Below, piece after piece: positions 6,379 to 29,527 of a stretch of DNA of 64,000 nt (positions within the stretch are counted from its first letter, which is position 1; every line of letters begins with the position of its first letter). Position numbers and translations under genes: made by a program. The stretch lies in the NCBI GenBank assembly GCA_016934325.1, contig JAFGSV010000019.1, positions 1,197 through 65,196 of the forward strand. The letters run 5' to 3'. The notes below the pieces were generated by a model, which saw nothing but the letters and a program-made list of their open reading frames with translations, did no database searches and had not been told where the DNA came from. Source of the DNA: Candidatus Aenigmatarchaeota archaeon (lineage in GTDB: Archaea > Aenigmatarchaeota > Aenigmatarchaeia > QMZP01 > JAFGSV01).

Positions 6379-7038
6379 ATGAGAATGTACGATTACTGCA
6401 TACTGGACTTCTCCGACCCGGCCGCCGTCTCGGATAAGGCGGCAAAGCTCGGCTGGGGCGGGCTGTGCGTGCTGGACGCTGAAAGCCGCGAGGGGTCGAA
6501 AGAGAAGGGGAAGCCATGCATCGATGTCGCCAAGGGCACCATCATCGAGGCCGACAAGGCGGCAACGGTAAGGCGGGAGGCTCTGAAGAGGAGGAGGGTC
6601 TTCGAGGTCGTTGCCGTCAGGGGGCTGAGCGACGAGGCGAACAGGGCGGCCGTCGAGGCGCCCGCCGCCGACATCCTGCTGCCCGGCGATGATTCGAGGG
6701 TCGATTACGTCATGGTCAAGCTGGCGAAGAAGAACAGCGTGTCCATAGGGTTCGAGTTCAGGCAGCTGCTCCAGTCGAGCGGGGAGGACAGGAGCAGGAT
6801 CTTCTCCAGGATGCGGGCCACGGCGAAGCTGGTGCGCAAGTTCGGGGCCTCCTTCGTCATAACGAGCGGGGCCATGTCCGAATGGGACTTGAGGGCCCCA
6901 TCGGAGCTCATCGCCTTCGGCAGGGTCCTCGGATTCGAGACCCCCGGCATAACGAAGGCCATCTCCGCCTGGCTGATTGAAAGGAACAGGAAGAGGCTGG
7001 GAGGCAAATGGGTCATGCCTGGGGTGGAGGTCGAATAG
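6379..7038 (+). CDS. rnp3: RNase P protein component 3 (Rpp30 family)
   Basis: 219 aa with Rpp30-like pattern (VDYVMVKLAKKNSVSIGFEF...RMRATAKLVRKFGASFVITSGAMSEWDLRAPSELIAFGRVLGF). It lies immediately upstream of a Pop5-like gene, the usual archaeal pairing. Confidence 0.7.
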   Translation: MRMYDYCILDFSDPAAVSDKAAKLGWGGLCVLDAESREGSKEKGKPCIDVAKGTIIEADKAATVRREALKRRRVFEVVAVRGLSDEANRAAVEAPAADILLPGDDSRVDYVMVKLAKKNSVSIGFEFRQLLQSSGEDRSRIFSRMRATAKLVRKFGASFVITSGAMSEWDLRAPSELIAFGRVLGFETPGITKAISAWLIERNRKRLGGKWVMPGVEVE

Positions 7039-7076
7039 GTGCCAGGGATGGAATATATGAGTAAGAGGCGATTGTC

Positions 7077-7418
7077 GTGAAGCTCAAGAGGCTCCCGAGC
7101 ATGCGGGAGAAGAGGCACTACGTGACTTTCAGGCTGCACAGCAATAATCCCGTCATGTACAGCGAGATGAAGGGCGCCGTCATGAACTCCGTCCTGAACT
7201 GGCTGGGGGAGGGAGGCTTCTCAGCTGCCAGGTGCAGGATCATAAAGAACCTGTGGGACCACAGGAGGCAGGTCGGCATGATGGAATGCTCGCCTGCTTC
7301 CGTGGACGACATCAAGCTGGCCCTCGCCCTGGTCCACCAGATAGGCGACGAGCGGGTAATCTTCCAGGTCACCCGGGTCTCAGGCACGATCAAGTCCGGG
7401 AAGGCAAAGATGAAATAG
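7077..7418 (+). CDS. rnp2: RNase P protein component 2 (Pop5 family)
   Basis: 113 aa, GTG start. LKRLPSMREKRHYVTFRL at the N-terminus and VSGTIKSGK near the C-terminus match the Pop5 pattern (LPPxxRxxxRYIxFEI ... SGTI). Confidence 0.7.
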   Translation: MKLKRLPSMREKRHYVTFRLHSNNPVMYSEMKGAVMNSVLNWLGEGGFSAARCRIIKNLWDHRRQVGMMECSPASVDDIKLALALVHQIGDERVIFQVTRVSGTIKSGKAKMK

Positions 7419-10015: not shown

Positions 10016-12517
10016 ATGTCCAAGAGCATAAAATTCGCCGTTTCGGGGGTAGGCAACTGCCTCAGCTCGCTGATACAGGGGATCCACTACTACAAGGACA
10101 TCGAATCGGGCGACGTCCCGGGCCTGATGCACGTGAACTTCGGCGGCTACCTGATAAAGCAGCTCAAGCCGGTGGCGGCCTTCGACGTCGATAAAAGGAA
10201 GGTTGGCAAGGACCTGGGCGAGGCCATATTCGCCAAGCCGAACTGCACTACGGTATTCCACAAGGACGTGCCCAAGCTGGGCGTTGAGGTGAAGAAGGGC
10301 CCGGTCCTTGACGGGGTCGCTTCGCACATGCATGAGCATCCGGAGGACAGGACCTTCGTCCTGTCGGACGAATCCCCGGTCGACGCGGCGAAGGAGCTGC
10401 GCGACAGCGGCGCCGAGATCCTCATCAACTACATGCCCGTGGGTTCCGAGCATGCGACGAGCTATTACGCCCAGGCCGCGCTGGACGCGGGCTGCGCCTT
10501 CGTAAACTGCATGCCGGTATTCATAGCCTCCACGCCGCACTGGGTCAAGAGGTTCGAGGACAAGCGCCTGCCCATAATCGGGGACGACATCAAGTCCCAA
10601 GTCGGGGCGACCATCGTCCACAGGACCCTGGCCAAGCTCTTCTCCGACAGGGGAGTCAAGATCGTGTCGAGCTACCAGCTCAACGTGGGGGGCAACAGCG
10701 TGACAGGAGACCAAGAAATCATGCTTGCCGTCAATGGGAAGGTGAAGAAAACCAGGATTGGGGATTTTATCGACCGTTTTGTGGATGTCTTTGGAGAGAA
10801 GAGAGCTGACGGGAAGGATGTTGTAATCGTTGAAGATACCGAACAGGAAATAAAATGCTTCACTGTTGATGACGATTTTAATGTGATACAGTCGGATGTG
10901 GGCGCACTGATAAGGCACAGAATCTCAGAGCCAATTTATGAGATTACAACCGAGGAAGGCAGGAAGATCAAGATAACGAAGGACCATAACGTGTTCACAC
11001 TTGATGATGAGGGAAACCTGGAAGAGATCCCAATAGGATCGGTCAGGGAGAATGATACTTTCATTGCGGTACCAAGAAGCCTGGAGTTCTGTGCCAAGGA
11101 AGAAGCCAAGGTGATAGACCTTAACCCTTATCTGGATGACATGTTCGTGAAAGGCGTATCGGATGGCTTCATGAGGATTCACAACCATCCTGAGATAAGG
11201 ATCCCCGTGCATCTGCCTGTAACGGATGAGCTTTTACAGATAGTGGGTCTGTGGCTTGCGGACGGTAACTATGACAGGTTATCGTCATCTAACATAGAAC
11301 TGGCATGCGGTAATGAACCCGAGTGCATGGCAATTGTAGACAGCTTCACCTGCAATTACAATTTGAACTACAATGTGCGGAGCGACGGGGTGAGGGTGAG
11401 GCTCCTTTCAAAGACCCTGTCGAAGATTTTCAGATTGGCACTTGGATTAGGAGGGAATGCCTACTCGAAGCGAGTGCCGGGATGGGTATTCGGCCTTTCA
11501 GAGCGGCAGATTGGACTGGTACTAAGGGGGTATCTAAGCGGCGACGGGGGGGTGACCGGAAAACAAATACGCTGGTCTTCCGCATCGGAAGGCCTTGTCA
11601 GTGATATCCAGACATTATTCTTGCGCATCGGTATCAACTCCACCGTTTTCAAGGAGACCTATGGTAGCAGCAAGTCCTCCTACAGCAGCTCCCTGGGGCA
11701 TATCTGGCATGGCTTAATATCATCCGACGACATGGGGCCATTCATGGCTAAGGCGGGTTTCTTGCAGGATTACAAGAATGAAATGGCGTCGGAAGCTTTA
11801 GGGAAGCTGAGAATGAATAACACGCATAAGATACCGAACATATCCTTATTCAAGAGATCTCGAATTAAATCAAAAACCTGGCATAAGCATAAATCCATAA
11901 GAGCATACATAGTCCTCAATCAGCTCGACAAGATTAAGGATGAATTCGAAAGGGAGAGGGCAAGAAGCATCTGCTCCGGCGATGTGCGCTTCCTAAAAAT
12001 AAGAAAGGTAAAGCAAATAAGGACGGATGGTGTTTATGTTTACGACATAAGCACCAAGCCTTATGAACGATTTATCTGTTCCAATATCCTGGTTCACAAT
12101 ACCGATTTCAGCAACATGCTCGCCAGGGACAGGCTCAAGTCGAAGAAGATAAGCAAGACCCAGGCCGTCCAGTCGAACCTTCCCGTGCCAATAAATCCCT
12201 ACAACCTGCACATCTCGCCGAGCGACTACGTCCCCTGGCTCAAGGACAAGAAGCTCTGCTTCCTGAGGATAGAGGGCAGGAAGTTCGGCGACGTTCCCAT
12301 AAACATCGAGGCAAGGCTGGAGGTCGAGGACTCCCCGAACTCGGCTGGAGTCGTCATCGACGCCCTGAGGGCCGCGAAGATAGGCCTGGACAGGGGCCTT
12401 GGGGGCCCGCTTGATTCCATATCAGCATACTGCATGAAGAGCCCGCCGCACCAGTACCCGGATCCCATAGCCAGGGACATGGTCGAGGAGTTCATCAGGG
12501 GAGACAGGGAAAGGTAG
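10016..12517 (+). CDS. ino1: myo-Inositol-1-phosphate synthase interrupted by an intein (exteins 10016..10696 and 12101..12517, 365 aa when joined)
   Basis: N-extein FAVSGVGNCLSSLIQGIHYYKD...YQLNVGGN and C-extein TDFSNMLARDRLKSKKISKTQAV match the Ino1/IPS family (VGVGNCASSLVQG ... QLNVGGN-x-DF-x-NML-x-RDRL-x-SKKISKT). The joined length is typical for the family. Confidence 0.9.
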   Translation: MSKSIKFAVSGVGNCLSSLIQGIHYYKDIESGDVPGLMHVNFGGYLIKQLKPVAAFDVDKRKVGKDLGEAIFAKPNCTTVFHKDVPKLGVEVKKGPVLDGVASHMHEHPEDRTFVLSDESPVDAAKELRDSGAEILINYMPVGSEHATSYYAQAALDAGCAFVNCMPVFIASTPHWVKRFEDKRLPIIGDDIKSQVGATIVHRTLAKLFSDRGVKIVSSYQLNVGGNSVTGDQEIMLAVNGKVKKTRIGDFIDRFVDVFGEKRADGKDVVIVEDTEQEIKCFTVDDDFNVIQSDVGALIRHRISEPIYEITTEEGRKIKITKDHNVFTLDDEGNLEEIPIGSVRENDTFIAVPRSLEFCAKEEAKVIDLNPYLDDMFVKGVSDGFMRIHNHPEIRIPVHLPVTDELLQIVGLWLADGNYDRLSSSNIELACGNEPECMAIVDSFTCNYNLNYNVRSDGVRVRLLSKTLSKIFRLALGLGGNAYSKRVPGWVFGLSERQIGLVLRGYLSGDGGVTGKQIRWSSASEGLVSDIQTLFLRIGINSTVFKETYGSSKSSYSSSLGHIWHGLISSDDMGPFMAKAGFLQDYKNEMASEALGKLRMNNTHKIPNISLFKRSRIKSKTWHKHKSIRAYIVLNQLDKIKDEFERERARSICSGDVRFLKIRKVKQIRTDGVYVYDISTKPYERFICSNILVHNTDFSNMLARDRLKSKKISKTQAVQSNLPVPINPYNLHISPSDYVPWLKDKKLCFLRIEGRKFGDVPINIEARLEVEDSPNSAGVVIDALRAAKIGLDRGLGGPLDSISAYCMKSPPHQYPDPIARDMVEEFIRGDRER
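10697..12100 (+). mobile_element. Full-size intein (468 aa) with LAGLIDADG homing-endonuclease domain, inserted in ino1
   Basis: Starts with Ser1 (SVTGDQEIML, block A). TKDH (block B TxxH). Two LAGLIDADG motifs, LQIVGLWLADGNYD and VLRGYLSGDGGV. Ends ILVHN followed by Thr+1 (block G HN/T). Insertion lies between GGN and TDF of a conserved Ino1 motif. Confidence 0.85.
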
Positions 12518-13622: not shown

Positions 13623-15383
13623 TCAGCGCCCGCCCTTCTGCTGCTTGTACATCAAGCTTATCCTGTCTATGTCGTCCGCGTCCTCGGGGCTCTTGTCGGG
13701 CCTGAGCCTTATGAGCCTCGGGAACCTGAGGGCAAAGCCGCTGTCGTAGTTCGGGGATTTCTGTATCTCCTCGTAGGCTATCTCGATGACGATCTTCGGG
13801 GTGATCCTCACCGTGCTGCCCTTCTCGCCGACGATATCGGGCTTCAGCATATCCGTAAGGTCCTTGAAGGTGATGTCGGTCTCCGCCGTCTTCTTCTCCT
13901 TCACCCCGGTCCCCATCATGCCGCATTGCAGGAACTCACCGCTCGCCTGGTCCCTGCACGCGAGCAGGAAGGAACCGAGCCATCCGGCCCTCTTGCCCGT
14001 GCCCCACTGCGCCCCCGATATCACGAGGTCCAGGGTCTCCATGATGGGCTTGACCTTCAGCCATCCCCCGGCCACCCTCTTCCCAGGCTGGTAGGTGGCG
14101 TCGAGGTTCTTCACCATCACGCCCTCCTGGCCGGCATAGAGCGCTTCCTGATAGAATTTCTCGGCTTTCTTTAGGTCTTTGGTAGTCAGGGGCTCCGCCA
14201 GCTGGAACTTCCCTAGGGTGGCCTTGATGACTTTTTCGAGCAGCCGCCTCCTCTCTTTGAAGGGCTTGTCGAACAGCTGCTCGCCCTCGAGATAGACTAT
14301 GTCGAACCAGTTGAGCTGGACGGGTATCTCCTTGGTCATCCTGGCTATGTCGTACTTCCTGTGTATTCGCTGGGAGAGCGCCTGGAAGGCCATCGGCTTC
14401 CCTGTCTTAGGGTTCACGGCCATGGCCTCGCCCTCGATTATGCATCTCTTCGCCTTGACCCCTTTCCTGACCATCTCGACCAGGTCCGGGAACTGCGTCG
14501 TCACGTTCTCGAGCCTCCTCGTGAAGAGCCATACCTTGTCGCCGTCCTTGTGCGCCTGTATCCTCGCCCCGTCAAATTTTTGCTCTATTTGCAGGTTATC
14601 GTAGGATTCAAGGGCGTCTTTCAGGGACGGCGCCTTGTCTGCAAGCAGGACGTGGAACGGCTTGCCGAGTTCAAGCGTCGCCTTCTTCAGGCCATCAAGC
14701 CCCTTGTCCTTCGCTATGCATGCGACCTCACCGTAATCGGGCCTGAGGAACCATGCCCACTCAATCGCCTTGATGGCATCTTTCTTGTCATCCCCTTCCT
14801 TATCAGGGAAGTAGGCTTTGGCGATGGCGTCCCTGATCACGCCCTCAGCCACGCCAACGCGCAGCTGCCCGAGGGATGTCCTGACGATATATTTCGCCTC
14901 CAACGGCGAGGAATGCATTATCAGCTCCTTGACTATGCTTATCTTGACCTCCTGGCTCCCCTTCCCCTCAACGGAAGCGAGCTTCCGCATGTTCTTGAAG
15001 ACCTTCTCGATGTCAATGTGCTTGAATCCGAGGGTCTGCTGCTGCTTCTTACCCATCAAAGCCTCCACTGTCAGTCCTAGGTCCCCGGTCTCCCTGTAGC
15101 TCCTGACCACCGCCGATTCAGGGAAGCCGGTAGCAGTCGCGACTATCTTGATGACAATCTTGTCGGCGATCCCTATCACCATCTCGCTCCATGAAGGGAA
15201 GACCTTACCCTGCAGCAGAAGGACTATCCTAGGGAGGTTCTCTGAATCGGATTCTTGCAGAAGGCTTGCGACGGCGTCAATTTTCGCCAGCCTTGACGGC
15301 GTCTCCTCAAGCTTCGCGTAAACGTCAACGAGCTTCGAATACAGCATGATTATAGTTGGTTTGGGATTTAAAATAGTGCTCAA
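13623..15383 (-). CDS. lig: ATP-dependent DNA ligase
   Basis: 586 aa. Adenylation motif I EQKFDGARIQ (KxDG). Also LFTRRLENVT, EGEAMAV, EGVMVK, WLKVKP. Standard archaeal Lig architecture. Confidence 0.9.
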   Translation of the reverse strand: MSTILNPKPTIIMLYSKLVDVYAKLEETPSRLAKIDAVASLLQESDSENLPRIVLLLQGKVFPSWSEMVIGIADKIVIKIVATATGFPESAVVRSYRETGDLGLTVEALMGKKQQQTLGFKHIDIEKVFKNMRKLASVEGKGSQEVKISIVKELIMHSSPLEAKYIVRTSLGQLRVGVAEGVIRDAIAKAYFPDKEGDDKKDAIKAIEWAWFLRPDYGEVACIAKDKGLDGLKKATLELGKPFHVLLADKAPSLKDALESYDNLQIEQKFDGARIQAHKDGDKVWLFTRRLENVTTQFPDLVEMVRKGVKAKRCIIEGEAMAVNPKTGKPMAFQALSQRIHRKYDIARMTKEIPVQLNWFDIVYLEGEQLFDKPFKERRRLLEKVIKATLGKFQLAEPLTTKDLKKAEKFYQEALYAGQEGVMVKNLDATYQPGKRVAGGWLKVKPIMETLDLVISGAQWGTGKRAGWLGSFLLACRDQASGEFLQCGMMGTGVKEKKTAETDITFKDLTDMLKPDIVGEKGSTVRITPKIVIEIAYEEIQKSPNYDSGFALRFPRLIRLRPDKSPEDADDIDRISLMYKQQKGGR

Positions 15384-15448
15384 ATTTCACTTTTCACTTT
15401 TCTATCGTGCACTAACGCAATCAATATAAGATAGCTAGAGAATTCCGA

Positions 15449-16189
15449 TTGATGGGTCTGAAAATGCCATTAAAAGAAAGTCCCATTTTAGCAGAATTAA
15501 TTGGTATTTTATTAGGCGATGGATCAATCGGTATTTACAAATGCAAGAGAAAATGTGGTAATTTTTCTTTACAGCATAAAATGCAGATTACCCTGAATTC
15601 TATCGATGATAAAGATTATATTATTTTCTTAGAAAAAATGATCTTTCGACTTTTTGGTGTAAAACCCAAGATAACCTACAGAAGTGGGAGAACTTGCGAT
15701 TTACGCCTTTTCAAGAAGGAAATAATTCAATTTTTAATCAATGAAATTGGTATGGTGATGTCTCCAAAATGGAAAAATGCAAAAATCCCTGATTATTACT
15801 TGCATACAGATTTGGAAATTAAAATTATACGAGGGTATTTCGATACTGATGGAAGCGTTGTTGTAACAAATAATAATGGAACATTGTACCCTAGATTAGA
15901 AATGAAAATATGCCCATCACCAATGCAAAGCCATATTATTGATATTCTAAAAAGAATGGAATTTAGATTTGGTGTTTATTCCATTGGGAAAGGGAAAGTA
16001 AGAATACAATTGAATGGTAAGCAACAATTGGAAAAATGGATAAAAGAAATTGGTTTTAGTAATAATAAACATATAATCAAGGCAAAACTATTCTTTTCTT
16101 CAAAACCGATAGCGGGGGATGGATTTGAACCATCGACCTTTGGGTCTCCCTTTGAACCTGAAGTCCAATATGAGCCATTCGCGAGTTAA
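15449..16189 (+). CDS. Free-standing LAGLIDADG homing endonuclease (double-motif) in an AT-rich islet
   Basis: Motifs LAELIGILLGDGSIG and IIRGYFDTDGSVV. TTG/ATG start at 15449/15452. The last ~27 codons (PIAGDGFEPSTFG...) are read-through into the antisense strand of the tRNA gene, so the functional C-terminus is probably near ...KAKLFF. Confidence 0.7.
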   Translation: MMGLKMPLKESPILAELIGILLGDGSIGIYKCKRKCGNFSLQHKMQITLNSIDDKDYIIFLEKMIFRLFGVKPKITYRSGRTCDLRLFKKEIIQFLINEIGMVMSPKWKNAKIPDYYLHTDLEIKIIRGYFDTDGSVVVTNNNGTLYPRLEMKICPSPMQSHIIDILKRMEFRFGVYSIGKGKVRIQLNGKQQLEKWIKEIGFSNNKHIIKAKLFFSSKPIAGDGFEPSTFGSPFEPEVQYEPFAS

Positions 16190-16258
16190 TACCCTCAACG
16201 AGCACTCCAGGCTTTGAGGACAAACCGAATGAACTGATTTGTCTTGCTCTACCCCGCT
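16110..16258 (-). tRNA. Initiator tRNA-Met (CAU) gene with three predicted introns (16214..16244, 16177..16195, 16146..16168). No encoded CCA
   Basis: The minus strand reads AGCGGGG-TA-GAGC-A[31 nt]AGCCTGGAGT-GCTC-G-TTG[19 nt]GG-CTCATA[23 nt]A-CCCAA-AGGTC-GATGG-TTCAAAT-CCATC-CCCCGCT-A. The spliced product is 76 nt including the discriminator A73. It has a 7-bp acceptor stem, A1:U72, A11:U24, G29-31:C39-41 and anticodon CAU (16170..16172), which are archaeal initiator hallmarks. The introns fold into BHB-like motifs. Confidence 0.8.
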
Positions 16259-16341
16259 GTTGCTATTATAATGAGGATGGTGGTTTTTAAAGGTTAACTG
16301 GGGGATACATTTTTCAAATTCGCCTGCTATAATGTGTTCTT

Positions 16342-17028: not shown

Positions 17029-17050
17029 GCCGGGAAAACATGTCCAAGTC

Positions 17051-17437
17051 TTATGGTGGTGTGTCCGTAGACCTAATTTCAAGTCTATATAATTTCTGAT
17101 TGAGTTGTTCTATCCTTAAAACATCTCCTGGCCCAAGTTCTTCATGCTTTCTATACCAGTTTGTAACGCTCATCTTATCGGAATCTCTTTCTGATCGCCT
17201 GGGAGAACATATATAGGCACCTGCCTTCTGGTCTCCAACACTAGTATCACTCGAAGCTGCCGCCGTTACCCATGCCTCTACTTTTCCATCGTCAGTATTA
17301 AATACGAATCGTTTCTTATATCCGGGGAAAAAATCTCTATGTTTTCTAGGGAAAACGATGATTCCATACCTTCTCCAAGATGGCTCGTCCCCTCTTGCTT
17401 GTGGGAGCTCAAGCTCTATGACTCCTGAATCGGTCAT
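17051..17437 (-). CDS. Small protein, possible B3/EcoRII-N-like DNA-binding pseudobarrel (tentative)
   Basis: Pattern IIVFPRKHRDFFPGYKKRFVFNTDDGKVEAWV...GAYI...TNWYRKHEELGPGDVLRIEQ...YRLEI resembles B3-type barrels (fP..f......l.D..G..w.v......g.yi...W..f....l..GD.v.f). The call rests on pattern only. Confidence 0.4.
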   Translation of the reverse strand: MTDSGVIELELPQARGDEPSWRRYGIIVFPRKHRDFFPGYKKRFVFNTDDGKVEAWVTAAASSDTSVGDQKAGAYICSPRRSERDSDKMSVTNWYRKHEELGPGDVLRIEQLNQKLYRLEIRSTDTPP

Positions 17438-17484
17438 GATTTAGCATATGACAGAAAACTTTATAAGTTTTCTTTTTAACTACT

Positions 17485-20076
17485 TTAGGGTTGTGTAATG
17501 GAATGGGTTCGCTCCTTCAACTGTGAAAATGCATTATCCAAGGGCCCGATTCTCTTCCCGGAATATCGGACATCTTTGCCATAAGAAGGTTGCGTGAATT
17601 TTGCCCCAAGATATATTCTTGATAGCCCGCCACTTGCGGCATAAGTTCTTGGCGTATGATTGTACATGACGAATTCTCCTTCAGGAACAGTATATCCTGA
17701 CTCATGATCCTTCACTTTCTCGGCTGCGACAAGGTATACCTTTTGAATCTGTCGCCTTTGACCATTCACTGTGGCACGGCCCGTGAACAGGTCAGAAAGA
17801 ACAGGATTTAAATTATACGAGGCAAGGACTTCATTGAAAGCGTGGAATATTTTGTTGTTTGTGCGGTAATGCGGTAATGTTGCTATGAAAAAGCCCTCGG
17901 GCACCAGCAAACCGTTGGTATCAATGAGTGTGTCCTCCACCTCCCTTTGAAATTTACTATCACCGTCATATCTTTGGGCAAGATACATCAGAGAATAGGA
18001 AGCTGTCACTAAATCGAACATCCCATTCCCAAAAAGCATATGCGCCTCTGCCATGTTGCCCTTCACATACTGCATCTTTCTTAAGCCACTCTTTACATGT
18101 TCCAGTTCTAATCCCTCGCATCTCTTCTTCGCTTCCTGTAGCATCCTCTCGTCTATATCCAGATTTACAATAGGTCTGCCGAGAGCTCTCGCCAGATTAG
18201 CGGACCCACATCCATAATCGAGTATTCTTCCGAATTTTCTTCCCCTCAGCTCTTCAAGTCCCTTAATCACCATAGTTACAAATCCAGCAGTTTTCGAGGG
18301 AGGCAGGTGACTATCATCCTCAATGGTGTAACTTCTTCGCATATTAGCAAATTTATCAGCGAACCGACCTTCTCCTGAACATGCCCTTTTGATTTCTTTG
18401 CTGCCTGCACCATAAAGCTCGACACTGCTTATCATGCCGCTCATGAATCTTTGTAATCTTCTGTCCTTGCTCTTTCTTGGAAGGCTGCCTAGTCCCTTAT
18501 TCGCTGCTTCTGTATGACTATCAGTATTCATCAATTTTTCTTCAACTTCATCCAATCTAAGCCCTTCATACAGTTTGTCTTTTAGAATACGGTCTTTTGC
18601 GATTCTCATATTATATGCGTCCAAGTCTATCGTTCCAGGAAGCCAAGTCGGCTTGAATTCAACCGCGTATTCGGTTTCCAGTGAATCCTTAGCTTTTATC
18701 ATGTAATCAGATAATTCAGAACTATTAGCCAAAACCGTATGGATATGGACCGGAGCAATTTGACCCTTCCTGTATCCCCTTCCAACAATTTCTCCATAAT
18801 CGCAGGGTGTGATTGCAGGCTCAAGAATGATTATATGTGAAGGCCTGTCATATGTTGTAAGAGGTATGCCCTCTCCCATTGTCTGTATGGTGTTGGCAAG
18901 TGCCCGTAGTTTTCCTTCGCGATACTGCTTGGCCATTTCTACCCTGTCCTCAATTCTATTTACGGTCCCGTCAATTCTTCCAACTCTTCTAGGCATTACC
19001 CTTTCAAGCCTTCTCGCAATTTCTTTGGTAACACCATCACGCAAATAAGAATATACCAAAATTTGTGATTCGCTGTCACCTTTGGCTATAGCATCCGCCA
19101 TATTCTCCAATGCATCATATTTTGATGCCAAAAGAGTTCTTCCGAGGAGCGGTATTTTCACCCCCGTGGGCATGTCCCCGTCTCTCCAGTATTTCATGTA
19201 CCTGTCTTTGTACTTGTCCTCCATATCAACGGAAACCGTGTCTTCACATAATTCGGGCAGATTGAATATCTCCTTCAGATCGTCCCTTGTGAAGGTCAAA
19301 AGCTTTCCCTGCATTTTCAAGTCCCTGAAAACAGCCGGATTCGAATTATAGTTAAAGGTACTAAGAGTATACCTGTCAGGGTCCAAGAGATGCAGCGCAA
19401 CACCAGCGTCTTTCAAACGATTTGGTATGGGATAAGCACTAAGAAGAACAACATATTTGTCCATGGTAGCTCTAATAATTTCATCGATAATCCTGGTCTT
19501 GTTTGATTTTGGATTTTTCAATAATTGGCATTCATCGAATACAAGTATATCTGGACCTTTGCTACTTTGGCACCATGATAAGAATCTTGAAAAGTATGAA
19601 TTATCAGCCCTTGCTTCCGGTCTCGTATAGCCGAATTTATGATAATTGACCGCTGCCATATCAAAGTCCGAGTCCAAAAGGGAAAGGTCGCTTCTGCCCA
19701 TAACGGGAACAACTTGCATAGGATCCATTCCCATAGCTTCACGGTAGCTGTTCTGCTCCTCCTCGGTCCATGCAGTCTGAATGGCCTGATTTGGTGCCCA
19801 GACCGCTGTCCTTGCAGGTCTTCCGATTTCTTCGGAAAGCAGTGAATGCAGCAGGTTTGTGACAAACGTTTTTCCTGATGATGTCGCATCCGCACAAAGA
19901 ATTCTCTTGTTTCCATTGTTCAAAGCCTCATATACCCTCCTGGTTTGATGTGCGGTGGGTGTGATTTCTCCTGTACTCCTTTTGCATAGGCCAGACCAGA
20001 AATCCACAAATTTGTTGCACTCAGCCAATGCTGCCTGCCTGGTTTCTGTTGAAATTGCGTTTTTCTGTCCCATCAT
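17485..20076 (-). CDS. SNF2-family SF2 helicase fused to a C-terminal class-I SAM-dependent methyltransferase
   Basis: Helicase motifs are I CADATSSGKT, Ia VWAPNQAI, II VFDECQLLKN, III LLSAYPIPNR, V TMGEGIPL and VI GRGYRKGQ. The C-terminal MTase has motif I ILDYGCGSANLARAL, an acidic post-I NLDID, FDLVTASYSLMYL and LVPEGFF. No (D/N/S)PP(Y/F/W) DNA-MTase motif was seen. Confidence 0.8.
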   Translation of the reverse strand: MMGQKNAISTETRQAALAECNKFVDFWSGLCKRSTGEITPTAHQTRRVYEALNNGNKRILCADATSSGKTFVTNLLHSLLSEEIGRPARTAVWAPNQAIQTAWTEEEQNSYREAMGMDPMQVVPVMGRSDLSLLDSDFDMAAVNYHKFGYTRPEARADNSYFSRFLSWCQSSKGPDILVFDECQLLKNPKSNKTRIIDEIIRATMDKYVVLLSAYPIPNRLKDAGVALHLLDPDRYTLSTFNYNSNPAVFRDLKMQGKLLTFTRDDLKEIFNLPELCEDTVSVDMEDKYKDRYMKYWRDGDMPTGVKIPLLGRTLLASKYDALENMADAIAKGDSESQILVYSYLRDGVTKEIARRLERVMPRRVGRIDGTVNRIEDRVEMAKQYREGKLRALANTIQTMGEGIPLTTYDRPSHIIILEPAITPCDYGEIVGRGYRKGQIAPVHIHTVLANSSELSDYMIKAKDSLETEYAVEFKPTWLPGTIDLDAYNMRIAKDRILKDKLYEGLRLDEVEEKLMNTDSHTEAANKGLGSLPRKSKDRRLQRFMSGMISSVELYGAGSKEIKRACSGEGRFADKFANMRRSYTIEDDSHLPPSKTAGFVTMVIKGLEELRGRKFGRILDYGCGSANLARALGRPIVNLDIDERMLQEAKKRCEGLELEHVKSGLRKMQYVKGNMAEAHMLFGNGMFDLVTASYSLMYLAQRYDGDSKFQREVEDTLIDTNGLLVPEGFFIATLPHYRTNNKIFHAFNEVLASYNLNPVLSDLFTGRATVNGQRRQIQKVYLVAAEKVKDHESGYTVPEGEFVMYNHTPRTYAASGGLSRIYLGAKFTQPSYGKDVRYSGKRIGPLDNAFSQLKERTHSITQP

Positions 20077-20084
20077 GCACCACC

Positions 20085-21422
20085 TTACAAACCTGCCCCA
20101 AGTCGCTCTAAATCTTTAAGATAGTTTCTCGCTTGCTGGGGGTTTCGCATCCTTTCTATAACGTCCATATGATACCTCGAAAGAATTCTTCCCGCAGTTT
20201 CCGATTCGACGTTAAGTTCAGCAAGGGACATTTCCAATGCTTCCGAGTCCTCGAATCCATTGGAAGGATCATTAGATGATTCATCCAGTCTTATCACGCC
20301 AAGATTCATTTTTGGCATTGTATAAACCAATCGTGCTAAGGCATCAGGGCTGGTCCTGCTTTTTTGTCCATTCAGTTTCTCATAAATTAATCTGCCAGCT
20401 GTTCCAGCCATTTGCATGCTTTCAGTATCTGTCGAATACCTTGAAGCTATTCGGTAAGCGTCAATTGTACCCGCTGAATCTGGTGATGCCTTCAACAATT
20501 CTTCAGAAGTAAAAGGTTTTATACCGTAGTTTAACTTTTTAGCAATAATTATTTTTTGTTTAAGTTCTTCCAAATCGATGCCCATTGCTATTGCTGCTGC
20601 ATTAAGGACTTTTTCATTTCTTAAGTAAACCATTGCACTTTTTCCATTATACCCAAAAACATCAGCTATAGAATCCATAGTGCCTTCATTGGAAGCATAT
20701 CGGGTAACCATTTGGACTTTATCATCAAAAGGTAGCCTTTTATTACTATGTTTTTCATCTAAATCTTCGATTCTTTGCCTTAATTCAGACACTGTTATAC
20801 CAATTGATTCTGCTGCGGAGGAAAGAATGTCGTCGTTTCTTAAATATTTTAAACAAGAAGTTCTACTACATCCAAAATCACGAGCTATAGAAGCCACAGT
20901 GCCTTCATTGGAAGCATATCGGGTAACCATTTGGACTTTATCATCAAAAGGTAGCCTTTTTCGATTTGTAAAATTTCCCCCTACCCTCATCATTTTTTGT
21001 TTTAATTCAGAAACTGTTATACCCATTGATTCGGCTGCAGCGGTAATAATATCTTCTTTTTTCAAAGAATATCCTAAAATCCATTCACGACATCCAAAAT
21101 CATCAGCGACAGAATCCATAGTGCCTTCATTGGAAGCATATCGGGTAACCATTTGGACTTTATCATCAAAAGGTGTATCTTTATTATGCTTATTATAAAT
21201 CCTTGCATTAATTATTCCTTGTTTCAATTCAGGCACGGTTATACCCATAGAATTAGCCGCAGCGTATAGAATTTCATTGTTGCTTAGACAATTTGTAACT
21301 GATTTTTTATGGCATCGAAAATCACGAGCTAAAGAAGACAAAGAGCCTTTATTTTTAGCATATCGGGTAACTATTTGGACTTTATCTTTGAATGAAATTC
21401 TATTTATACTTGGCATATTCAC
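20085..21422 (-). CDS. Protein made of four tandem ~73-aa double-HTH-like modules plus a unique C-terminal region
   Basis: The module (P/S)F(D/K)DKVQ(M/I)VTRYA(S/K)N(E/K)G(T/S)..S.A.DF(G/R)C...(N/D).(I/V)L.AAA.(S/A)(M/I)GI(T/D)(V/L).EL(K/R)Q occurs four times. It resembles transposase/terminase-type HTHs. The stop lies 8 nt before the helicase start codon. Confidence 0.7.
   Translation of the reverse strand: MNMPSINRISFKDKVQIVTRYAKNKGSLSSLARDFRCHKKSVTNCLSNNEILYAAANSMGITVPELKQGIINARIYNKHNKDTPFDDKVQMVTRYASNEGTMDSVADDFGCREWILGYSLKKEDIITAAAESMGITVSELKQKMMRVGGNFTNRKRLPFDDKVQMVTRYASNEGTVASIARDFGCSRTSCLKYLRNDDILSSAAESIGITVSELRQRIEDLDEKHSNKRLPFDDKVQMVTRYASNEGTMDSIADVFGYNGKSAMVYLRNEKVLNAAAIAMGIDLEELKQKIIIAKKLNYGIKPFTSEELLKASPDSAGTIDAYRIASRYSTDTESMQMAGTAGRLIYEKLNGQKSRTSPDALARLVYTMPKMNLGVIRLDESSNDPSNGFEDSEALEMSLAELNVESETAGRILSRYHMDVIERMRNPQQARNYLKDLERLGAGL
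20670..21175. repeat. Intragenic tandem repeat: about 60-bp near-identical cores spaced 219 and 222 bp apart (three copies, plus a diverged fourth near 21358)
   Basis: The string gtgccttcattggaagcatatcgggtaaccatttggactttatcatcaaaaggt occurs starting at 20680, 20899 and 21121. A diverged copy (gcatatcgggtaactatttggactttatc) starts at about 21358. Confidence 0.85.
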
Positions 21423-21483
21423 ACCTATTTACTACTAAAATATAACTAATAATGTTTAAATAGCTTATTTTGAGGTTCTCATA

Positions 21484-23375: not shown

Positions 23376-24656
23376 TTAGAATTCTTCATCCACCTGGTAT
23401 TTTCCCTTCGCCATGTACTGATTCGATACCTGATAGGTAATCCTTGACTTGTAAGCGCCCTCGAAATCGTCTTCCTTCCCGATATCCAGTTCGTATCTTT
23501 TCTTCCCTGACTCTTCGACATGTGCCTGAGGGATCATCATCTTTATCTCGTAGCCCTCGAATGGGGGCGGGATGAAAGCAGGGCCCCCTTCTGCCCTGAA
23601 CTTCCAGAGAAGGCTCTTGTTCTCGATATCGAGGCAGTAGAGGTTGCAGTCCCATGAGGAGAAGAAAAGCCTGCCTTCATGAACAACCGGCTGGATGTAG
23701 ACGAAGCCCTCCGTCTTGAATGACCAGAGCTTCTGCCCGTCGAGTGAGAGGGAATATATGTTATAGTCCTCGCTGCCTATGAATATCTTGTCATCATGGA
23801 TTGCAGGGGCGCCGAAAGGCTCCCTGTTTACATACTTCCATATTTGTTTTCCATCCGGGGTGAGCGCGAACAGAAGTCCGTCCCTCGATGCGTGGTATAA
23901 TATTCCTTTATAGACTACAGGCGATGCGGCGTTGCCGTAAATTCCGGTTGGAAACTTCCATAGCAGTTCACCGGTATTGGCATCGAGGGCCCTGAGGAAA
24001 TTGTCAAAAGAACCGAAATATACAACTCCATCATGCACTAATGGAGGGTGCATGTTGTGGTTTTCGCCTTGGGTGGTGAATTTCCATATGAGATTTCCGG
24101 TATCGGCGTTTAGGCAGTAGAAGTTCTTGTCAAAGGATCCTATGTAGACCTTATTTTTATGAACACTCGGGCTTGCCGATATCTCATCGAACGTCTTGAA
24201 CTTCCATATCAGGGAACCGGTCATTGCACCCAGAGCGTACACATTATGGTCCTTGGAACCAAAATAAACAATCCCGTCTGCAACTGAAGCTTTTGAGTCA
24301 ATCTGGCCTTCAGTCTTGAACTTCCATTTCAGTTTCCCTGTCTCCGCATCCAGGCAATAGAGATTGTAATCAAAGGAACCGATATAGATGTTTCCGTTCC
24401 AGTGGGTGGGCGACGATTCAAGAATTATTCCCCGGGTTTCGAATTTCCATTTCAGCTGGCCAGTTCTAACATCCACAGCATAAACGTTTCTGTTGCATGA
24501 ACCGAAAAATATTGTATCACTGTGTATTTCGGGTATTTGAAGTATGCTGCCGCCGTAACCGATATTCCACATCCTGTCGAATTTCCTCGACTTCTTCAGC
24601 TCGAATTCCTGCATCTCGGTCGAAAATTCGTCGAACGTGAACTGTCCCTCTTCCAT
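23376..24656 (-). CDS. Cytoplasmic PQQ-like (BamB/YVTN-type) beta-propeller repeat protein, paralogue 1 (AT-rich copy)
   Basis: Has about eight ~40-aa repeats of the type G.(I/V)Y.GS.D..(L/F)Y(A/C)(L/V)D..TG.L.WKF.T. No signal peptide. The start is set at the ATG at 24656 (MEEGQFTFDEFSTEMQEFE), by analogy with the paralogues. The track start at 24668 is GTG. Confidence 0.8.
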   Translation of the reverse strand: MEEGQFTFDEFSTEMQEFELKKSRKFDRMWNIGYGGSILQIPEIHSDTIFFGSCNRNVYAVDVRTGQLKWKFETRGIILESSPTHWNGNIYIGSFDYNLYCLDAETGKLKWKFKTEGQIDSKASVADGIVYFGSKDHNVYALGAMTGSLIWKFKTFDEISASPSVHKNKVYIGSFDKNFYCLNADTGNLIWKFTTQGENHNMHPPLVHDGVVYFGSFDNFLRALDANTGELLWKFPTGIYGNAASPVVYKGILYHASRDGLLFALTPDGKQIWKYVNREPFGAPAIHDDKIFIGSEDYNIYSLSLDGQKLWSFKTEGFVYIQPVVHEGRLFFSSWDCNLYCLDIENKSLLWKFRAEGGPAFIPPPFEGYEIKMMIPQAHVEESGKKRYELDIGKEDDFEGAYKSRITYQVSNQYMAKGKYQVDEEF

Positions 24657-24773
24657 GGCAAAACGCACCTCAAAGAATAAGAAAAAGTATCAGTTTATAA
24701 AATTATGAAATGATAATTTTAACAAATTAACAAAATATTTAAATATTAGGTTATAAAGATAAATCGTGAAATC

Positions 24774-28177: not shown

Positions 28178-29476
28178 TCACAAAGCTTCCTCGTCGCTGT
28201 CTATCTGGTATTTCCCCTTCTCAGCGTACTGCGTCGAGATCTGGTACGTTATCCTGGACTTGTAGAACCTGCCGTCCTCGCTCTCGTCGTCAAGGATGAA
28301 CTCGTAGGTCTTCCTCTCGCCCTCCTTCTTCCCGGCACCTTCGGCCTGCTTCCTGATGACGACCTCGAACTCATCGTGCGCTGGCGGGAGGTATGACGGT
28401 GACCCCTCGGTCCTGAACTTCCAGATGACCCTTGCGCTGGAGGCGTCGATCGCGTACATGTTGCAGTCCCAGCTCGGGAATATGACCATGTTCCCCCAGA
28501 AGACGGCTGTCAGCCAGATCGGGCCCTGTGTGGTGAACTTCCATATCACCTTGCCCTGCATGTCCAGGCAGTACAGGTTGTAGTCCTCGAAACCCACGTA
28601 GATCCTGCCGTCCTTGAACGCAGGTATGGACGGGACGTGCATCCTCGAGAACTTCCATTCGATCCTGCCGTCCATCGAGATCGCCAGCAGGTTGCCGTCC
28701 CTCGTAGCGAGAAACATCTTCCCGTCATGATATACGGGGGAGTAGGCGTTGCCGAACTCCGCCGTCTTCAGTTTCCAAACATTCTTTCCCTCATCTGCCG
28801 TCAGGGCGTACAAGTTGTTGTCGAAGGACGTGAAGTATACGATGCCGTCACGGATGAGCGGCCTGTTGGCGTGGTAGACCTCGCCCTGCGTGACGAACTT
28901 CCAGACCAGCCTGCCGTTCCTGGCATCGATGCAGTAGAAGACCTTATCGAACGAGCCTATGTACACCTTGCCGTCGTGGACGGCCGGGCTCGAGCCGATC
29001 TCGTCCTGCGTATGGAATTTCCAGATCAGGCTGCCGTTCCTGGCATCGCAGCAATAGACGTTCTGGTCCTTCGAGGCGAAATATATCCTCCCGTTGTCGA
29101 TGCATGCCATCGAATTGACCTTGTCCATGCACTCGTACTTCCACCTTAGCTCGCCGCTCTTCGCGTCGAGCGCGTACATGTTGCGGTCGAAGCTGCCCGC
29201 GAATATCATTCCCTTCCAATAGACGGGCGAGGATTCGAAGACTATGCCGAAGGTCTTGAATTTCCATACCAGCTTCCCCGTCTTGACGTCCACGGCGTAG
29301 ATGTTGAAGTTGTTGGAGCCGAAGTAAAGGATGCCGTCGTGTGTCAGGGGTATGCAGCACATGCTGCCCCCATCGGAGACCCTCCATATCCGGTCGAACT
29401 TGCTCGTCCGCCTCATCTTGAAGTCCTCCATCTCGACGGAGAACTCGTCGAACCCGAATCCAGTGTGCTCTTCCAT
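28178..29476 (-). CDS. Cytoplasmic PQQ-like beta-propeller repeat protein, paralogue 2
   Basis: Same repeat pattern as paralogue 1. N-terminus MEEHTGFGFDEFSVEMEDFKM and C-terminus FYKSRITYQISTQYAEKGKYQIDSDEEAL are shared with paralogue 3. Confidence 0.8.
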   Translation of the reverse strand: MEEHTGFGFDEFSVEMEDFKMRRTSKFDRIWRVSDGGSMCCIPLTHDGILYFGSNNFNIYAVDVKTGKLVWKFKTFGIVFESSPVYWKGMIFAGSFDRNMYALDAKSGELRWKYECMDKVNSMACIDNGRIYFASKDQNVYCCDARNGSLIWKFHTQDEIGSSPAVHDGKVYIGSFDKVFYCIDARNGRLVWKFVTQGEVYHANRPLIRDGIVYFTSFDNNLYALTADEGKNVWKLKTAEFGNAYSPVYHDGKMFLATRDGNLLAISMDGRIEWKFSRMHVPSIPAFKDGRIYVGFEDYNLYCLDMQGKVIWKFTTQGPIWLTAVFWGNMVIFPSWDCNMYAIDASSARVIWKFRTEGSPSYLPPAHDEFEVVIRKQAEGAGKKEGERKTYEFILDDESEDGRFYKSRITYQISTQYAEKGKYQIDSDEEAL

Positions 29477-29500: not shown

Positions 29501-29527
29501 TTATAACGGTTATAACGGTTATAACGC
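29501..29527. repeat. Three tandem 9-bp units TTATAACGG / TTATAACGG / TTATAACGC between propeller genes 3 and 2. Likely TATA/regulatory element
   Basis: Read directly. The third unit contains the stop codon of gene 29519..30820. The first unit is centred about 29 nt upstream of the ATG at 29476. Each unit contains the palindrome TTATAA. Confidence 0.5.

What the first reader, a model, noticed from the sequence alone, without database searches (positions are those of the whole stretch)
16110..16258. Initiator tRNA-Met gene interrupted by three introns (D-loop, anticodon stem 29/30, canonical 37/38)
Removing 31, 19 and 23 nt yields a perfect 76-nt cloverleaf (including the discriminator A73). 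It has archaeal initiator identity marks: A1:U72, A11:U24, three G:C pairs 29-31:39-41, and the loop CUCAUAA.

The 19-nt intron forms a textbook bulge-helix-bulge:
- a 4-bp central helix, T24C25G26T27 paired with intron GCGA
- 3-nt bulges TG|A and AT|G, with cleavage after the second nucleotide of each
- an inner helix GGGT/ACTC

The canonical intron gives CTC(A)/GGG(A), bulges TA|T and AG|A, and the hairpin TGGA/TTCA. The D-loop intron gives GAG/CTC, a CA|A bulge and a GACAAA/TTTGTC helix, which is a relaxed BHB.

Multi-intron tRNAs at non-canonical positions are known mainly from some Thermoproteales and a few other archaeal lineages. They imply a broad-specificity splicing endonuclease.
Basis: partly seen in the sequence, partly recalled or inferred. 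Interest (0 to 1): 0.65.

Follow-up and report, generated by a model that had tools for sequence, protein, structure and literature searches.

The report
Three-intron initiator tRNA gene, DPANN archaeon
This is a real gene for the initiator methionine tRNA of an Aenigmatarchaeota (DPANN) archaeon, split by three small protein-spliced introns; that is a known kind of gene, but close relatives carry 0 to 6 introns in the same gene and a homing-endonuclease gene sits exactly at its end.

Summary
The finding is real and lies on the minus strand (window 16258..16110).

**The gene.** Joining four exons (14, 17, 8 and 36 nt) gives a 75-nt tRNA-Met(CAU) with initiator marks. This product is identical, 75 of 75 bases, to an intron-less gene at the same syntenic position in a relative. 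That intron-less gene scores 63 bits on Rfam tRNA.

**One correction.** The D-loop intron is 32 nt, not 31, and the mature tRNA is 75 nt, not 76. Three things support this: the orthologs, a strain-level presence/absence pair, and the 4-bp bulge-helix-bulge (BHB) ruler.

**The introns.** They lie at 14/15, 29/30 and 37/38 and fit the BHB register. The 19-nt intron fits strictly; the other two are relaxed.

**The lineage.** About 54 orthologs from Aenigmatarchaeota-like genomes and metagenomes carry 0-6 introns at about a dozen recurrent positions. All give a 75-nt product.

**Verdict.** This is a new member of a known kind, the multi-intron archaeal tRNAs. I could not test the type of the splicing endonuclease (EndA), the spliced RNA, or whether a second gene copy exists.

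**Seen in passing.** An AT-rich LAGLIDADG endonuclease cassette is inserted 2 nt from the tRNA's 3' end. Homologs of this endonuclease lay beside tRNAiMet in every context I examined.

The parts
16110..16258 (-). Complete tRNAiMet gene (149 nt, no encoded CCA): four exons and three introns.
   Evidence: ARAGORN in intron mode finds exactly these ends but miscalls the gene as tRNA-Leu with a single 74-nt intron.
16245..16258 (-). Exon 1 (14 nt, AGCGGGGTAGAGCA), tRNA positions 1-14.
   Evidence: Identical to the intron-less ortholog in L002.
16213..16244 (-). Intron 1 (32 nt) at 14/15 in the D-loop. Relaxed BHB: central helix GAG/CUC plus an A.A mismatch, 5' bulge CA|A, 8-bp inner helix, 3' bulge AA|G with no closing outer helix.
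   Evidence: Homologous 32-nt introns occur in L110, L114, L120, L126 and L140, and a 30-nt one in L010. Covariation. Presence/absence pair L097 versus L114.
16196..16212 (-). Exon 2 (17 nt, GCCTGGAGTGCTCGTTG), positions 15-29.
   Evidence: 100% identical to L002.
16177..16195 (-). Intron 2 (19 nt) at 29/30. Strict BHB: central helix UCGU/GCGA, bulges UG|A and AU|G, inner helix GGGU/ACUC.
   Evidence: All 17 introns at 29/30 in the orthologs have 4 of 4 central pairs. Close homologs in L092, L124 and L149.
16169..16176 (-). Exon 3, an 8-nt micro-exon (GGCTCATA), positions 30-37, which holds the CAU anticodon.
16146..16168 (-). Intron 3 (23 nt) at the canonical 37/38. Central helix CUC/GGG plus an A35.A mismatch, bulges UA|U and AG|A, inner hairpin UGGA/UUCA.
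   Evidence: Homologous introns in L004 and L108 begin TTGGCTTCAGG.
16110..16145 (-). Exon 4 (36 nt), positions 38-73, ending in the discriminator A73.
   Evidence: 100% identical to L002 over 38 nt.
16284..16298 (-). Putative archaeal promoter: TATA-like TTTAAAAA at -33 to -26, preceded by GTTAACC.
   Evidence: A TTTAAA-like box peaks at -34 to -30 in the aligned upstream regions of about 50 orthologs. That it works as a promoter is inferred.
16102..16105 (-). T-run (TTTT) 4 nt after the discriminator, a likely archaeal terminator.
   Evidence: T-rich runs follow most orthologs. Function is inferred.
15372..16107 (+). AT-rich (31% GC) cassette that carries the LAGLIDADG endonuclease gene. It is inserted 2 nt from the tRNA's 3' end. 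The ORF (15452-16189) reads on, antisense, into tRNA exon 4, intron 3 and exon 3.
   Evidence: Pfam LAGLIDADG_3 and LAGLIDADG_1. Insertion limits from blastn against L002. GC content. Homologs are about 30 aa shorter. Weak match to I-DmoI.

Best explanation
This is the functional initiator tRNA-Met gene of an Aenigmatarchaeota (DPANN) archaeon.

**Proposed mechanism.**
1. A TATA-box promoter drives transcription of a precursor of about 150 nt.
2. The archaeal tRNA splicing endonuclease (EndA) cuts at three bulge-helix-bulge motifs. It releases introns of 32 nt (14/15, D-loop), 19 nt (29/30) and 23 nt (37/38).
3. An RtcB-type ligase joins the four exons (14, 17, 8 and 36 nt) into a 75-nt tRNA.
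4. RNase P and a 3' nuclease trim the ends, and CCA is added afterwards.

**Constraints on folding.** The BHB helices of introns 1 and 2 use the two strands of the D-stem and nucleotides 26-27, so the precursor must fold differently from the cloverleaf. The outer helix of intron 2 and the central helix of intron 3 compete for G31 and C32, so removal is probably stepwise.

**Shown and inferred.** Shown: exon/intron anatomy, BHB register, identity to intron-less orthologs, conserved flanking signals. Inferred: transcription, the enzymes involved, and the order of splicing.
For: - **Spliced product.** It is a perfect cloverleaf that ARAGORN calls tRNA-Met(CAU). It is identical, 75 of 75, to the intron-less gene in L002 at the same position (DNA ligase, tRNA, RNase HII, AspRS). 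That gene scores 63.1 bits on Rfam RF00005.
- **Exon conservation.** The exons are 100% identical to L002, while the flanking DNA is 77-85% identical and RNase HII is 85% identical at the protein level.
- **Orthologs.** The 49 orthologs parsed (45 distinct) carry 0-4 introns, and those parsed carry up to 6. All splice in silico to 75 nt.
- **BHB register.** It is specific to the true boundaries.
- **D-loop intron.** Its helix is 82% paired, against 33-48% in slid controls, and 4 pairs show compensatory changes.
- **Strain-level pair.** L097 and L114 differ by exactly the 32-nt intron.
- **Flanking signals.** A TATA-like box and a T-run are conserved.
- **Literature.** Multi-intron, non-canonical BHB introns and the broad-specificity endonucleases that cut them are documented in archaea, including DPANN (PMC5829648, PMC4090602, PMC8450103).
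Against: - There are no RNA data, so splicing has not been observed.
- EndA was not found in the window or in any Aenigmatarchaeota locus I held. Its type and its specificity loop are therefore unknown.
- Introns 1 and 3 have only 3 of 4 central-helix pairs. The 3' bulge of intron 1 has no closing helix.
- The minimum-free-energy fold of the full precursor shows the BHB of intron 1 but not those of introns 2 and 3.
- A second, intron-less initiator gene elsewhere in the genome cannot be excluded.
Confidence: 0.9

Rival explanations
1. The D-loop intron is 31 nt, giving a 76-nt tRNA with D-loop AAGCCUGGAGU.
For: ARAGORN also accepts the 76-nt product as tRNA-Met. The run of A residues at both junctions leaves the sequence alone ambiguous.
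Against: - Every ortholog without a D-loop intron has GAGCAGCCTGG.
- Genes with only this intron are 107 nt, which is 75 + 32.
- L097 and L114 differ by 32 nt.
- The BHB register gives 2 of 4 central pairs for 31 nt and 3 of 4 for 32 nt.
- The 76-nt form would put A15, not G15, opposite C48.
Confidence: 0.04
2. The locus is a decaying pseudogene: a former tRNAiMet gene disrupted by three insertions and no longer used.
For: Standard tools find no tRNA here. A mobile cassette abuts the gene, and the cassette's ORF runs antisense across it. A second gene copy was not excluded.
Against: - All 75 exon positions are identical to the intron-less ortholog, although the flanks have diverged.
- Each insertion sits in BHB register.
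- The promoter box is retained.
- The syntenic gene in the 742-kb relative CP070804.1 is itself split by two introns.
- Dozens of relatives keep intron-bearing versions whose products are all perfect cloverleafs.
Confidence: 0.04
3. It is a CAU-anticodon tRNA of another identity: elongator tRNA-Met, or tRNA-Ile2 whose C34 becomes agmatidine.
For: The anticodon CAU is shared by all three tRNA species.
Against: From established knowledge of tRNA identity, A1:U72, A11:U24 and three consecutive G:C pairs at 29-31:39-41 mark archaeal and eukaryotic initiators, whereas elongator Met and Ile2 have G1:C72. The sequence shows all of the initiator marks.
Confidence: 0.02
4. It is tRNA-Leu(UAG) with one 74-nt intron, as ARAGORN's intron mode reports.
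For: ARAGORN -i gives this call with the same gene ends.
Against: The call is an artefact of a model that allows one intron. It lumps 32 + 19 + 23 nt together with the internal exons, it has no BHB, and it contradicts the intron-less orthologs.
Confidence: 0.01

Closest known systems
Multi-intron tRNA genes of Thermoproteales (Pyrobaculum, Thermofilum, Caldivirga), as summarised in PMC4090602 and PMC8450103
   Same: - Several short BHB introns in one tRNA gene.
- A canonical 37/38 intron together with non-canonical positions such as 29/30 and the D-arm.
- Relaxed BHB forms.
- Standard tRNA finders miss these genes.
- Rapid gain and loss among relatives.
   Different: The lineage is Aenigmatarchaeota (DPANN), not Crenarchaeota. 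The gene is the initiator tRNA. Its orthologs reach 4-6 introns, whereas the tRNAscan-SE 2.0 paper gives a maximum of three.
Disrupted tRNA genes of other DPANN archaea (ARMAN-2 / Micrarchaeum with epsilon2 EndA; Nanoarchaeum; Woese- and Pacearchaeota), PMC5829648
   Same: The same superphylum, the same non-canonical and multiple introns, and the same presumed need for an EndA with an added specificity loop.
   Different: Aenigmarchaeota is not among the four DPANN genomes that paper names as newly analysed. The EndA type of this lineage was not determined here. No split or permuted gene is involved.
Methanopyrus kandleri pre-tRNA-Glu(UUC), with a relaxed HBh' intron in the D-loop plus a canonical intron (PMC5829648)
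   Same: A relaxed D-loop intron sits beside a canonical 37/38 intron in one precursor. In vitro, the canonical intron is removed first.
   Different: The gene here has a third intron at 29/30 and an 8-nt anticodon micro-exon. No biochemistry exists for it.
Free-standing homing endonucleases that act with nearby introns (phage T4 mobE; cyanophage F-CphI 'collaborative homing'; PMC2790892, PMC6083498), and I-DmoI, the LAGLIDADG enzyme of an archaeal rRNA intron
   Same: - The neighbouring ORF is a two-motif LAGLIDADG protein with both catalytic Asp residues.
- It lies outside the introns, at a fixed site next to a highly conserved gene.
- It is sporadically present among close relatives.
- It gives a weak sequence match to I-DmoI.
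   Different: No cleavage site is known. The introns are protein-spliced BHB introns, not group I introns. Any link between the endonuclease and the introns is only a hypothesis.

Membership tests
Archaeal initiator tRNA-Met | Cloverleaf that a tRNA covariance model accepts | tested here: met
   The spliced 75-mer is identical to the L002 gene, which scores 63.1 bits on RF00005 against a gathering score of 29. ARAGORN calls it tRNA-Met.
Archaeal initiator tRNA-Met | Anticodon CAU with the initiator marks A1:U72, A11:U24 and G29-G31:C39-C41 | tested here: met
   Read directly from the spliced sequence. The meaning of these marks rests on established knowledge of tRNA identity.
Archaeal initiator tRNA-Met | Charged with methionine and used by aIF2 for initiation; sole or main initiator gene of the genome | not testable with these tools
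   There are no RNA or biochemical data, and only 64 kb of the genome is held. No other tRNA was found in the window.
Archaeal BHB (EndA-spliced) introns | Two 3-nt bulges separated by a 4-bp helix, with cleavage after the second bulge nucleotide giving the correct exon junction | tested here: met
   Intron 2 has 4 of 4 central pairs, so it is strict. Introns 1 and 3 have 3 of 4, so they are relaxed. In the orthologs, 81 of 83 introns have at least 3 of 4 pairs in register, and far fewer do when the boundary is shifted.
Archaeal BHB (EndA-spliced) introns | Structure kept while sequence varies across homologous introns | tested here: met
   D-loop intron: 82% of cells are paired, against 33-48% in slid controls, and 4 pairs change on both sides. 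This rests on only 5 sequences. At 29/30, 17 of 17 introns have a full central helix, with differing inner helices.
Archaeal BHB (EndA-spliced) introns | A splicing endonuclease able to cut relaxed, non-canonical sites ((alpha-beta)2, epsilon2, or loop-bearing alpha4) | not tested
   tblastn with EndA queries found nothing in the window or in the Aenigmatarchaeota loci held. It hit only L066 and L047, which belong to other lineages.
Archaeal BHB (EndA-spliced) introns | Excised intron and spliced product seen as RNA | not testable with these tools
   No transcript data are available.
Multi-intron archaeal tRNA genes | At least two introns in one gene, at least one at a non-canonical position | tested here: met
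   Three introns, at 14/15, 29/30 and 37/38.
Free-standing LAGLIDADG homing endonuclease (the neighbouring ORF) | Two LAGLIDADG motifs with catalytic acidic residues | tested here: met
   Pfam LAGLIDADG_3 (E = 4e-6) and LAGLIDADG_1. The motifs LLGDGS and FDTDGS are visible in the translation. Weak match to I-DmoI.
Free-standing LAGLIDADG homing endonuclease (the neighbouring ORF) | Present or absent at one fixed genomic site among close relatives | tested here: met
   The 736-nt, 31% GC cassette is present in the window. It is absent at the same site in L002, L004 and L148. A LAGLIDADG gene lies at the same site in the P0124 contig.
Free-standing LAGLIDADG homing endonuclease (the neighbouring ORF) | Site-specific cleavage of the empty allele, followed by gene conversion | not testable with these tools
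   This needs the enzyme and a cleavage assay.

The most novel reading that the evidence does not exclude
The LAGLIDADG gene beside this tRNA is a free-standing homing endonuclease whose homing site is the tRNAiMet locus. Under this reading it drives the intron mosaic in one or both of two ways:
- Introns that interrupt the conserved tRNA sequence protect the carrier from cleavage of its own gene.
- Repair of the double-strand break copies the endonuclease gene together with the donor's intron-laden tRNA allele into intron-poor genomes.

This would be the first mechanistic link between a homing endonuclease and the gain or spread of archaeal BHB tRNA introns. It would also be a direct instance of the idea that introns protect tRNA genes from mobile DNA.

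**Support so far.**
One of them is inferred from synteny only, because no DNA was returned. Two further loci were found by tblastn.
- The surrounding protein genes differ between these loci.
- The cassette ends 2 nt from the tRNA's 3' end.
- Linked genes carry 2-6 introns (mean 3.6), against a mean of 1.8 in 46 unlinked genes. The one-sided Mann-Whitney p is 0.002, not corrected for phylogeny or for sampling bias.
Probability: 0.22. Interest if true: 0.8.

Novelty: new member of a known kind. Interest (0 to 1): 0.5.

Why it matters
**Annotation.** Default ARAGORN and Rfam miss this gene altogether, and ARAGORN in intron mode mislabels it as tRNA-Leu. A genome annotated with these tools would therefore appear to lack an initiator tRNA. 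The same holds for most of its relatives: Rfam found only the intron-less copy among eight loci.

**tRNA intron biology.** The locus adds Aenigmatarchaeota to the lineages with heavily split tRNA genes. The surrounding data give an unusually clean natural series for one orthologous gene:
- Its exons barely change, yet it carries 0, 1, 2, 3, 4, 5 or 6 introns in relatives.
- One pair of near-identical strains differs by exactly one intron.

Such a series makes two old questions about archaeal tRNA introns testable: how they are gained and lost, and whether they protect tRNA genes from mobile DNA. The homing-endonuclease gene fixed at the end of this tRNA adds to that.

Tried and rejected
- **Standard tRNA and RNA finders.** Default ARAGORN and Rfam at gathering threshold find nothing in the 64 kb. 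ARAGORN in intron mode finds the right ends but calls tRNA-Leu(UAG) with one 74-nt intron; I rejected this.
- **Folding.** The minimum-free-energy fold of the whole precursor shows the acceptor stem, the T arm and the BHB of intron 1. It mispairs the region of introns 2 and 3. The fold with only intron 3 left prefers a register shifted by 2 nt. Folding alone therefore does not prove those two BHBs; the comparative register test does. My hand-built composite structure had the T arm mis-indexed, so its energy should be ignored.
- **Other tRNAs in the window.** I searched for other hidden tRNAs by T-arm motif and found none.
- **EndA.** Pfam scans of 20 window ORFs found none. tblastn with the M. 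jannaschii EndA sequence, recalled from memory, hit only L066 and L047. tblastn with the L066 EndA also found no convincing hit in the window or any Aenigmatarchaeota locus. I ran no further search on this, because its top hits would not be specific to this lineage.
- **Automatic spliced alignment.** It mis-parsed the more divergent genes (L143, L145, L147). I re-parsed them by hand and checked them. The mature length of 75 is partly forced by the aligner. The independent support is the natural length of the intron-less genes and of the single-intron genes.
- **Endonuclease linkage against intron number.** The test is suggestive only. It is not corrected for phylogeny, and the metagenome search pattern excluded genes with introns between positions 14 and 29.
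- **Missing or uninformative data.** The P0124 contig returned no DNA. A survey of other tRNAs in 395 kb of related loci found only two, which is too few to say whether tRNAiMet is unusually intron-rich. The paper PMC1852824 was not held.
Full report
**1. The observation**

The feature lies on the minus strand, from window 16258 down to 16110, and is 149 nt long. Default ARAGORN and Rfam at gathering threshold report nothing anywhere in the 64 kb.

Removing 32, 19 and 23 nt gives a 75-nt sequence that it also accepts. ARAGORN in intron mode finds exactly the same gene ends. It lumps everything into one 74-nt 'intron' and miscalls the gene as tRNA-Leu(UAG).

**2. Organism and neighbourhood**

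- The gene lies between a DNA ligase gene (minus strand) and the RNase HII and AspRS genes (plus strand).
- The best named homologs of the RNase HII are labelled Candidatus Aenigmatarchaeota.
- The same gene order occurs in relatives, including the 742-kb genome CP070804.1.
- An identical stretch was assembled from SRA run SRR13394437.

**3. Orthologs settle what the gene is**

At the syntenic position, relatives carry the following versions:

| Locus | RNase HII identity | tRNAiMet gene |
|---|---|---|
| L002 | 85% | intron-less, 75 nt |
| L003 | 80% | one intron, at 53/54 |
| L004 | 73% | introns at 29/30 and 37/38 |

- The L002 gene is identical at all 75 positions to the window's exons, provided the D-loop intron is 32 nt.
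- It scores 63.1 bits on Rfam tRNA, against a gathering score of 29. The seven intron-bearing orthologs searched alongside it are invisible to Rfam.
- Between the window and L002 the exons are 100% identical, while the flanks are 77-85% identical. This argues against a pseudogene.

**4. A wider sample**

I collected more orthologs in two ways. One was a genome scan seeded with an RNase HII alignment. The other was a metagenome scan with an 18-nt exon word. Together with the syntenic loci, these gave 49 closed tRNAiMet genes, 45 of them distinct.

A spliced alignment gives 0-4 introns per gene at recurrent positions:

| Position | Number of genes |
|---|---|
| 37/38 | 23, plus 4 placed at 38/39 |
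| 29/30 | 17 |
| 59/60 | 17 |
| 14/15 | 7 |
| 43-45 | 7 |
| 7/8 | 6 |
| 53/54 | 6 |
| others | a few |

L010 (Aenigmatarchaeota CSMAG_1366) has the same three positions as the window.

At the boundaries dictated by the exons, the 4-bp central helix of the BHB motif is well formed. Of 83 introns, 81 have at least 3 of 4 pairs and 50 have 4 of 4. When the 3' boundary is moved by 1-3 nt, only 1-8 of 83 have 4 of 4. The insertions are therefore BHB introns in the correct register and not random insertions.

**5. The one correction**

The D-loop intron is 32 nt (window 16213-16244), not 31.
- All intron-less orthologs are 75 nt, and every gene without a D-loop intron reads GAGCAGCCTGG.
- Genes with only this intron are 107 nt, which is 75 + 32.
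- L097 and L114 are 95-99.7% identical over more than 8 kb and differ by exactly this 32-nt insertion.
- The BHB ruler gives 3 central pairs for 32 nt and 2 for 31 nt.
- Only the 32-nt version puts G15 opposite C48.

Final anatomy:

| Part | Window coordinates | Length |
|---|---|---|
| Exon 1 | 16245-16258 | 14 nt |
| Intron 1 | 16213-16244 | 32 nt |
| Exon 2 | 16196-16212 | 17 nt |
| Intron 2 | 16177-16195 | 19 nt |
| Exon 3 | 16169-16176 | 8 nt (GGCTCATA, holds the anticodon) |
| Intron 3 | 16146-16168 | 23 nt |
| Exon 4 | 16110-16145 | 36 nt |

**6. The three BHB motifs**

- **Intron 2 is strict.** Central helix UCGU/GCGA, bulges UG|A and AU|G, inner helix GGGU/ACUC.
- **Intron 3 is relaxed.** Central helix CUC/GGG plus an A35.A mismatch; relatives have U there, which completes the helix. 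Bulges are UA|U and AG|A.
- **Intron 1 is relaxed.** Central helix GAG/CUC plus an A9.A mismatch (a G.U pair in L010), bulge CA|A, and an 8-bp inner helix. Its 3' bulge AA|G has no closing outer helix.
- **Covariation.** Across five homologous D-loop introns, the proposed helices are 82% paired, against 33-48% in slid controls. Four inner-helix pairs change on both sides.
- **Folding alone is weak evidence.** The minimum-free-energy fold of the precursor shows the BHB of intron 1 but mispairs introns 2 and 3 (z = -4.0).
- **Competing helices.** The helices of introns 1 and 2 use the two D-stem strands. Introns 2 and 3 compete for G31 and C32. Stepwise removal is therefore likely. This is an inference, and it agrees with remarks in PMC5829648 and PMC8450103.

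**7. Expression signals**

A TATA-like box, TTTAAAAA at -33 to -26 (window 16284-16291), is conserved in position across about 50 orthologs. T-runs follow the genes. No CCA is encoded.

**8. Comparison with what is known**

- Non-canonical positions, including 29/30, 45/46, 53/54 and 59/60, are documented, mainly for Thermoproteales and Nanoarchaeota. So are multi-intron genes and relaxed BHB forms (PMC4090602).
- DPANN lineages are known to pair loop-bearing EndA enzymes with disrupted tRNA genes. Aenigmarchaeota is not among the four DPANN genomes that the paper names as newly analysed (PMC5829648).
- The tRNAscan-SE 2.0 paper states that archaeal tRNA genes contain up to three introns.

The window's gene is therefore a new member of a known kind, at the reported maximum number of introns. 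I could not determine the EndA type, the spliced RNA, or whether a second gene copy exists.

**9. Beyond the finding: intron number**

- Some relatives exceed three introns. L092/L127, L138 and L071 have four.
- L145 has five and L143 has six, with exons as short as 5 nt. I parsed these by hand. Each insertion has at least 3 of 4 central pairs, and each product is a 75-nt cloverleaf that ARAGORN calls tRNA-Met.
- The closest relatives differ sharply. L148 (RNase HII 91% identical) has no intron. L149 (89%) has at least four introns and the gene is inverted.

**10. Beyond the finding: the LAGLIDADG cassette**

- A 736-nt cassette of 31% GC (window 15372-16107; the window as a whole is 54% GC) carries a two-motif LAGLIDADG endonuclease gene.
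- It replaces 20 nt of spacer and ends 2 nt from the tRNA's 3' end.
- Its ORF runs on, antisense, into the tRNA gene. This makes it about 30 aa longer than its homologs.
- The cassette is absent from L002, L004 and L148.
All lie beside a tRNAiMet gene, usually tail to tail and abutting its 3' end, while the surrounding protein genes differ. They are the P0124 contig (synteny only, no DNA returned), L141, L142, L143/L144, L145/L146 and L147. tblastn added L010 and L094.
- Endonuclease-linked tRNAiMet genes carry 2-6 introns, with a mean of 3.6. The 46 unlinked genes have a mean of 1.8. The one-sided Mann-Whitney p is 0.002, uncorrected for phylogeny and sampling.
- I found no paper describing this association.
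- Phage systems offer a working analogy, in which free-standing endonucleases act together with nearby introns (PMC2790892, PMC6083498). So does the proposal that introns shield tRNA genes from mobile DNA (cited in PMC4090602). This remains a hypothesis.

**11. Verdict**

- Confidence that this is a functional, EndA-spliced initiator tRNA gene: 0.9.
- Novelty: new member of a known kind.
- Interest is moderate (0.5). It is raised by the intron series and the endonuclease linkage, which make the dynamics of tRNA introns experimentally approachable.

Noticed in passing
window 15372-16107 (ORF 15452-16189, + strand): An AT-rich (31% GC) cassette carries a two-motif LAGLIDADG endonuclease gene. 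It is inserted 2 nt from the tRNAiMet 3' end, and its ORF reads antisense into the tRNA. Homologs lie beside tRNAiMet in every context examined (P0124 contig, L141, L142, L143/144, L145/146, L147, L010, L094), although the neighbouring genes differ.
   Followed up: partly
L143 2676-2845 (-); L145 2647-2805 (-); L092 5499-5670 (-); L127; L138 3436-3661 (-); L071 1847-2019 (-): Orthologous tRNAiMet genes appear to have four (L092/L127, L138, L071), five (L145) and six (L143) BHB-register introns, with exons as short as 5 nt. The tRNAscan-SE 2.0 paper gives a maximum of three.
   Followed up: partly
L097 5052-5126 versus L114 4456-4562: Two metagenome contigs are 95-99.7% identical over more than 8 kb and differ at the tRNAiMet gene by exactly the 32-nt D-loop intron. 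This is a strain-level presence/absence polymorphism of an intron.
   Followed up: yes
L010 227-368 (+); L149 1-~175 (+): In two relatives the tRNAiMet gene is inverted relative to RNase HII, so that both lie on the same strand. This suggests the tRNA locus is rearranged or replaced as a unit.
   Followed up: no
window 17040-21440: A lower-GC (41%) insertion of about 4.4 kb lies between RNase HII and AspRS. It encodes an 863-aa SNF2/DEAD-like helicase fused to a methyltransferase, a 445-aa protein with repeated CENP-B-type HTH units, and a 128-aa ORF. Relatives (L002-L004, L148, L149) have AspRS directly after RNase HII.
   Followed up: partly
window 10016-12517 (+): This 833-aa ORF, which I read by eye as a myo-inositol-1-phosphate synthase, seems to be interrupted by an intein with LAGLIDADG-like motifs. 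I did not check it with any tool.
   Followed up: no
window 6379-7418 (+): Adjacent genes encode the RNase P protein subunits p30 and Pop5/Rpp14 (Pfam). They are part of the tRNA 5'-processing machinery.
   Followed up: no
whole window, and 395 kb of related loci: Apart from the split tRNAiMet, no tRNA or Rfam RNA was detected in the 64 kb. Only two non-initiator tRNAs (Val, Ser) were found in 395 kb of related contigs. Other tRNA genes of this lineage may also be split beyond what standard tools can detect.
   Followed up: partly
L142 3735-3900; L109; L071: Some orthologs have C33 in place of the near-universal U33 in the anticodon loop (CCCAUAA).
   Followed up: no
window 23376-24668, 28178-29476, 29519-30820 (-): Three ORFs of about 430 aa look paralogous; Pfam on the first (23376-24668) shows a PQQ-like beta-propeller. 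Very large ORFs (1,435 to 2,093 aa) and strongly skewed, lysine- and glutamate-rich ORFs at 40-48 kb fill much of the rest of the window.
   Followed up: no
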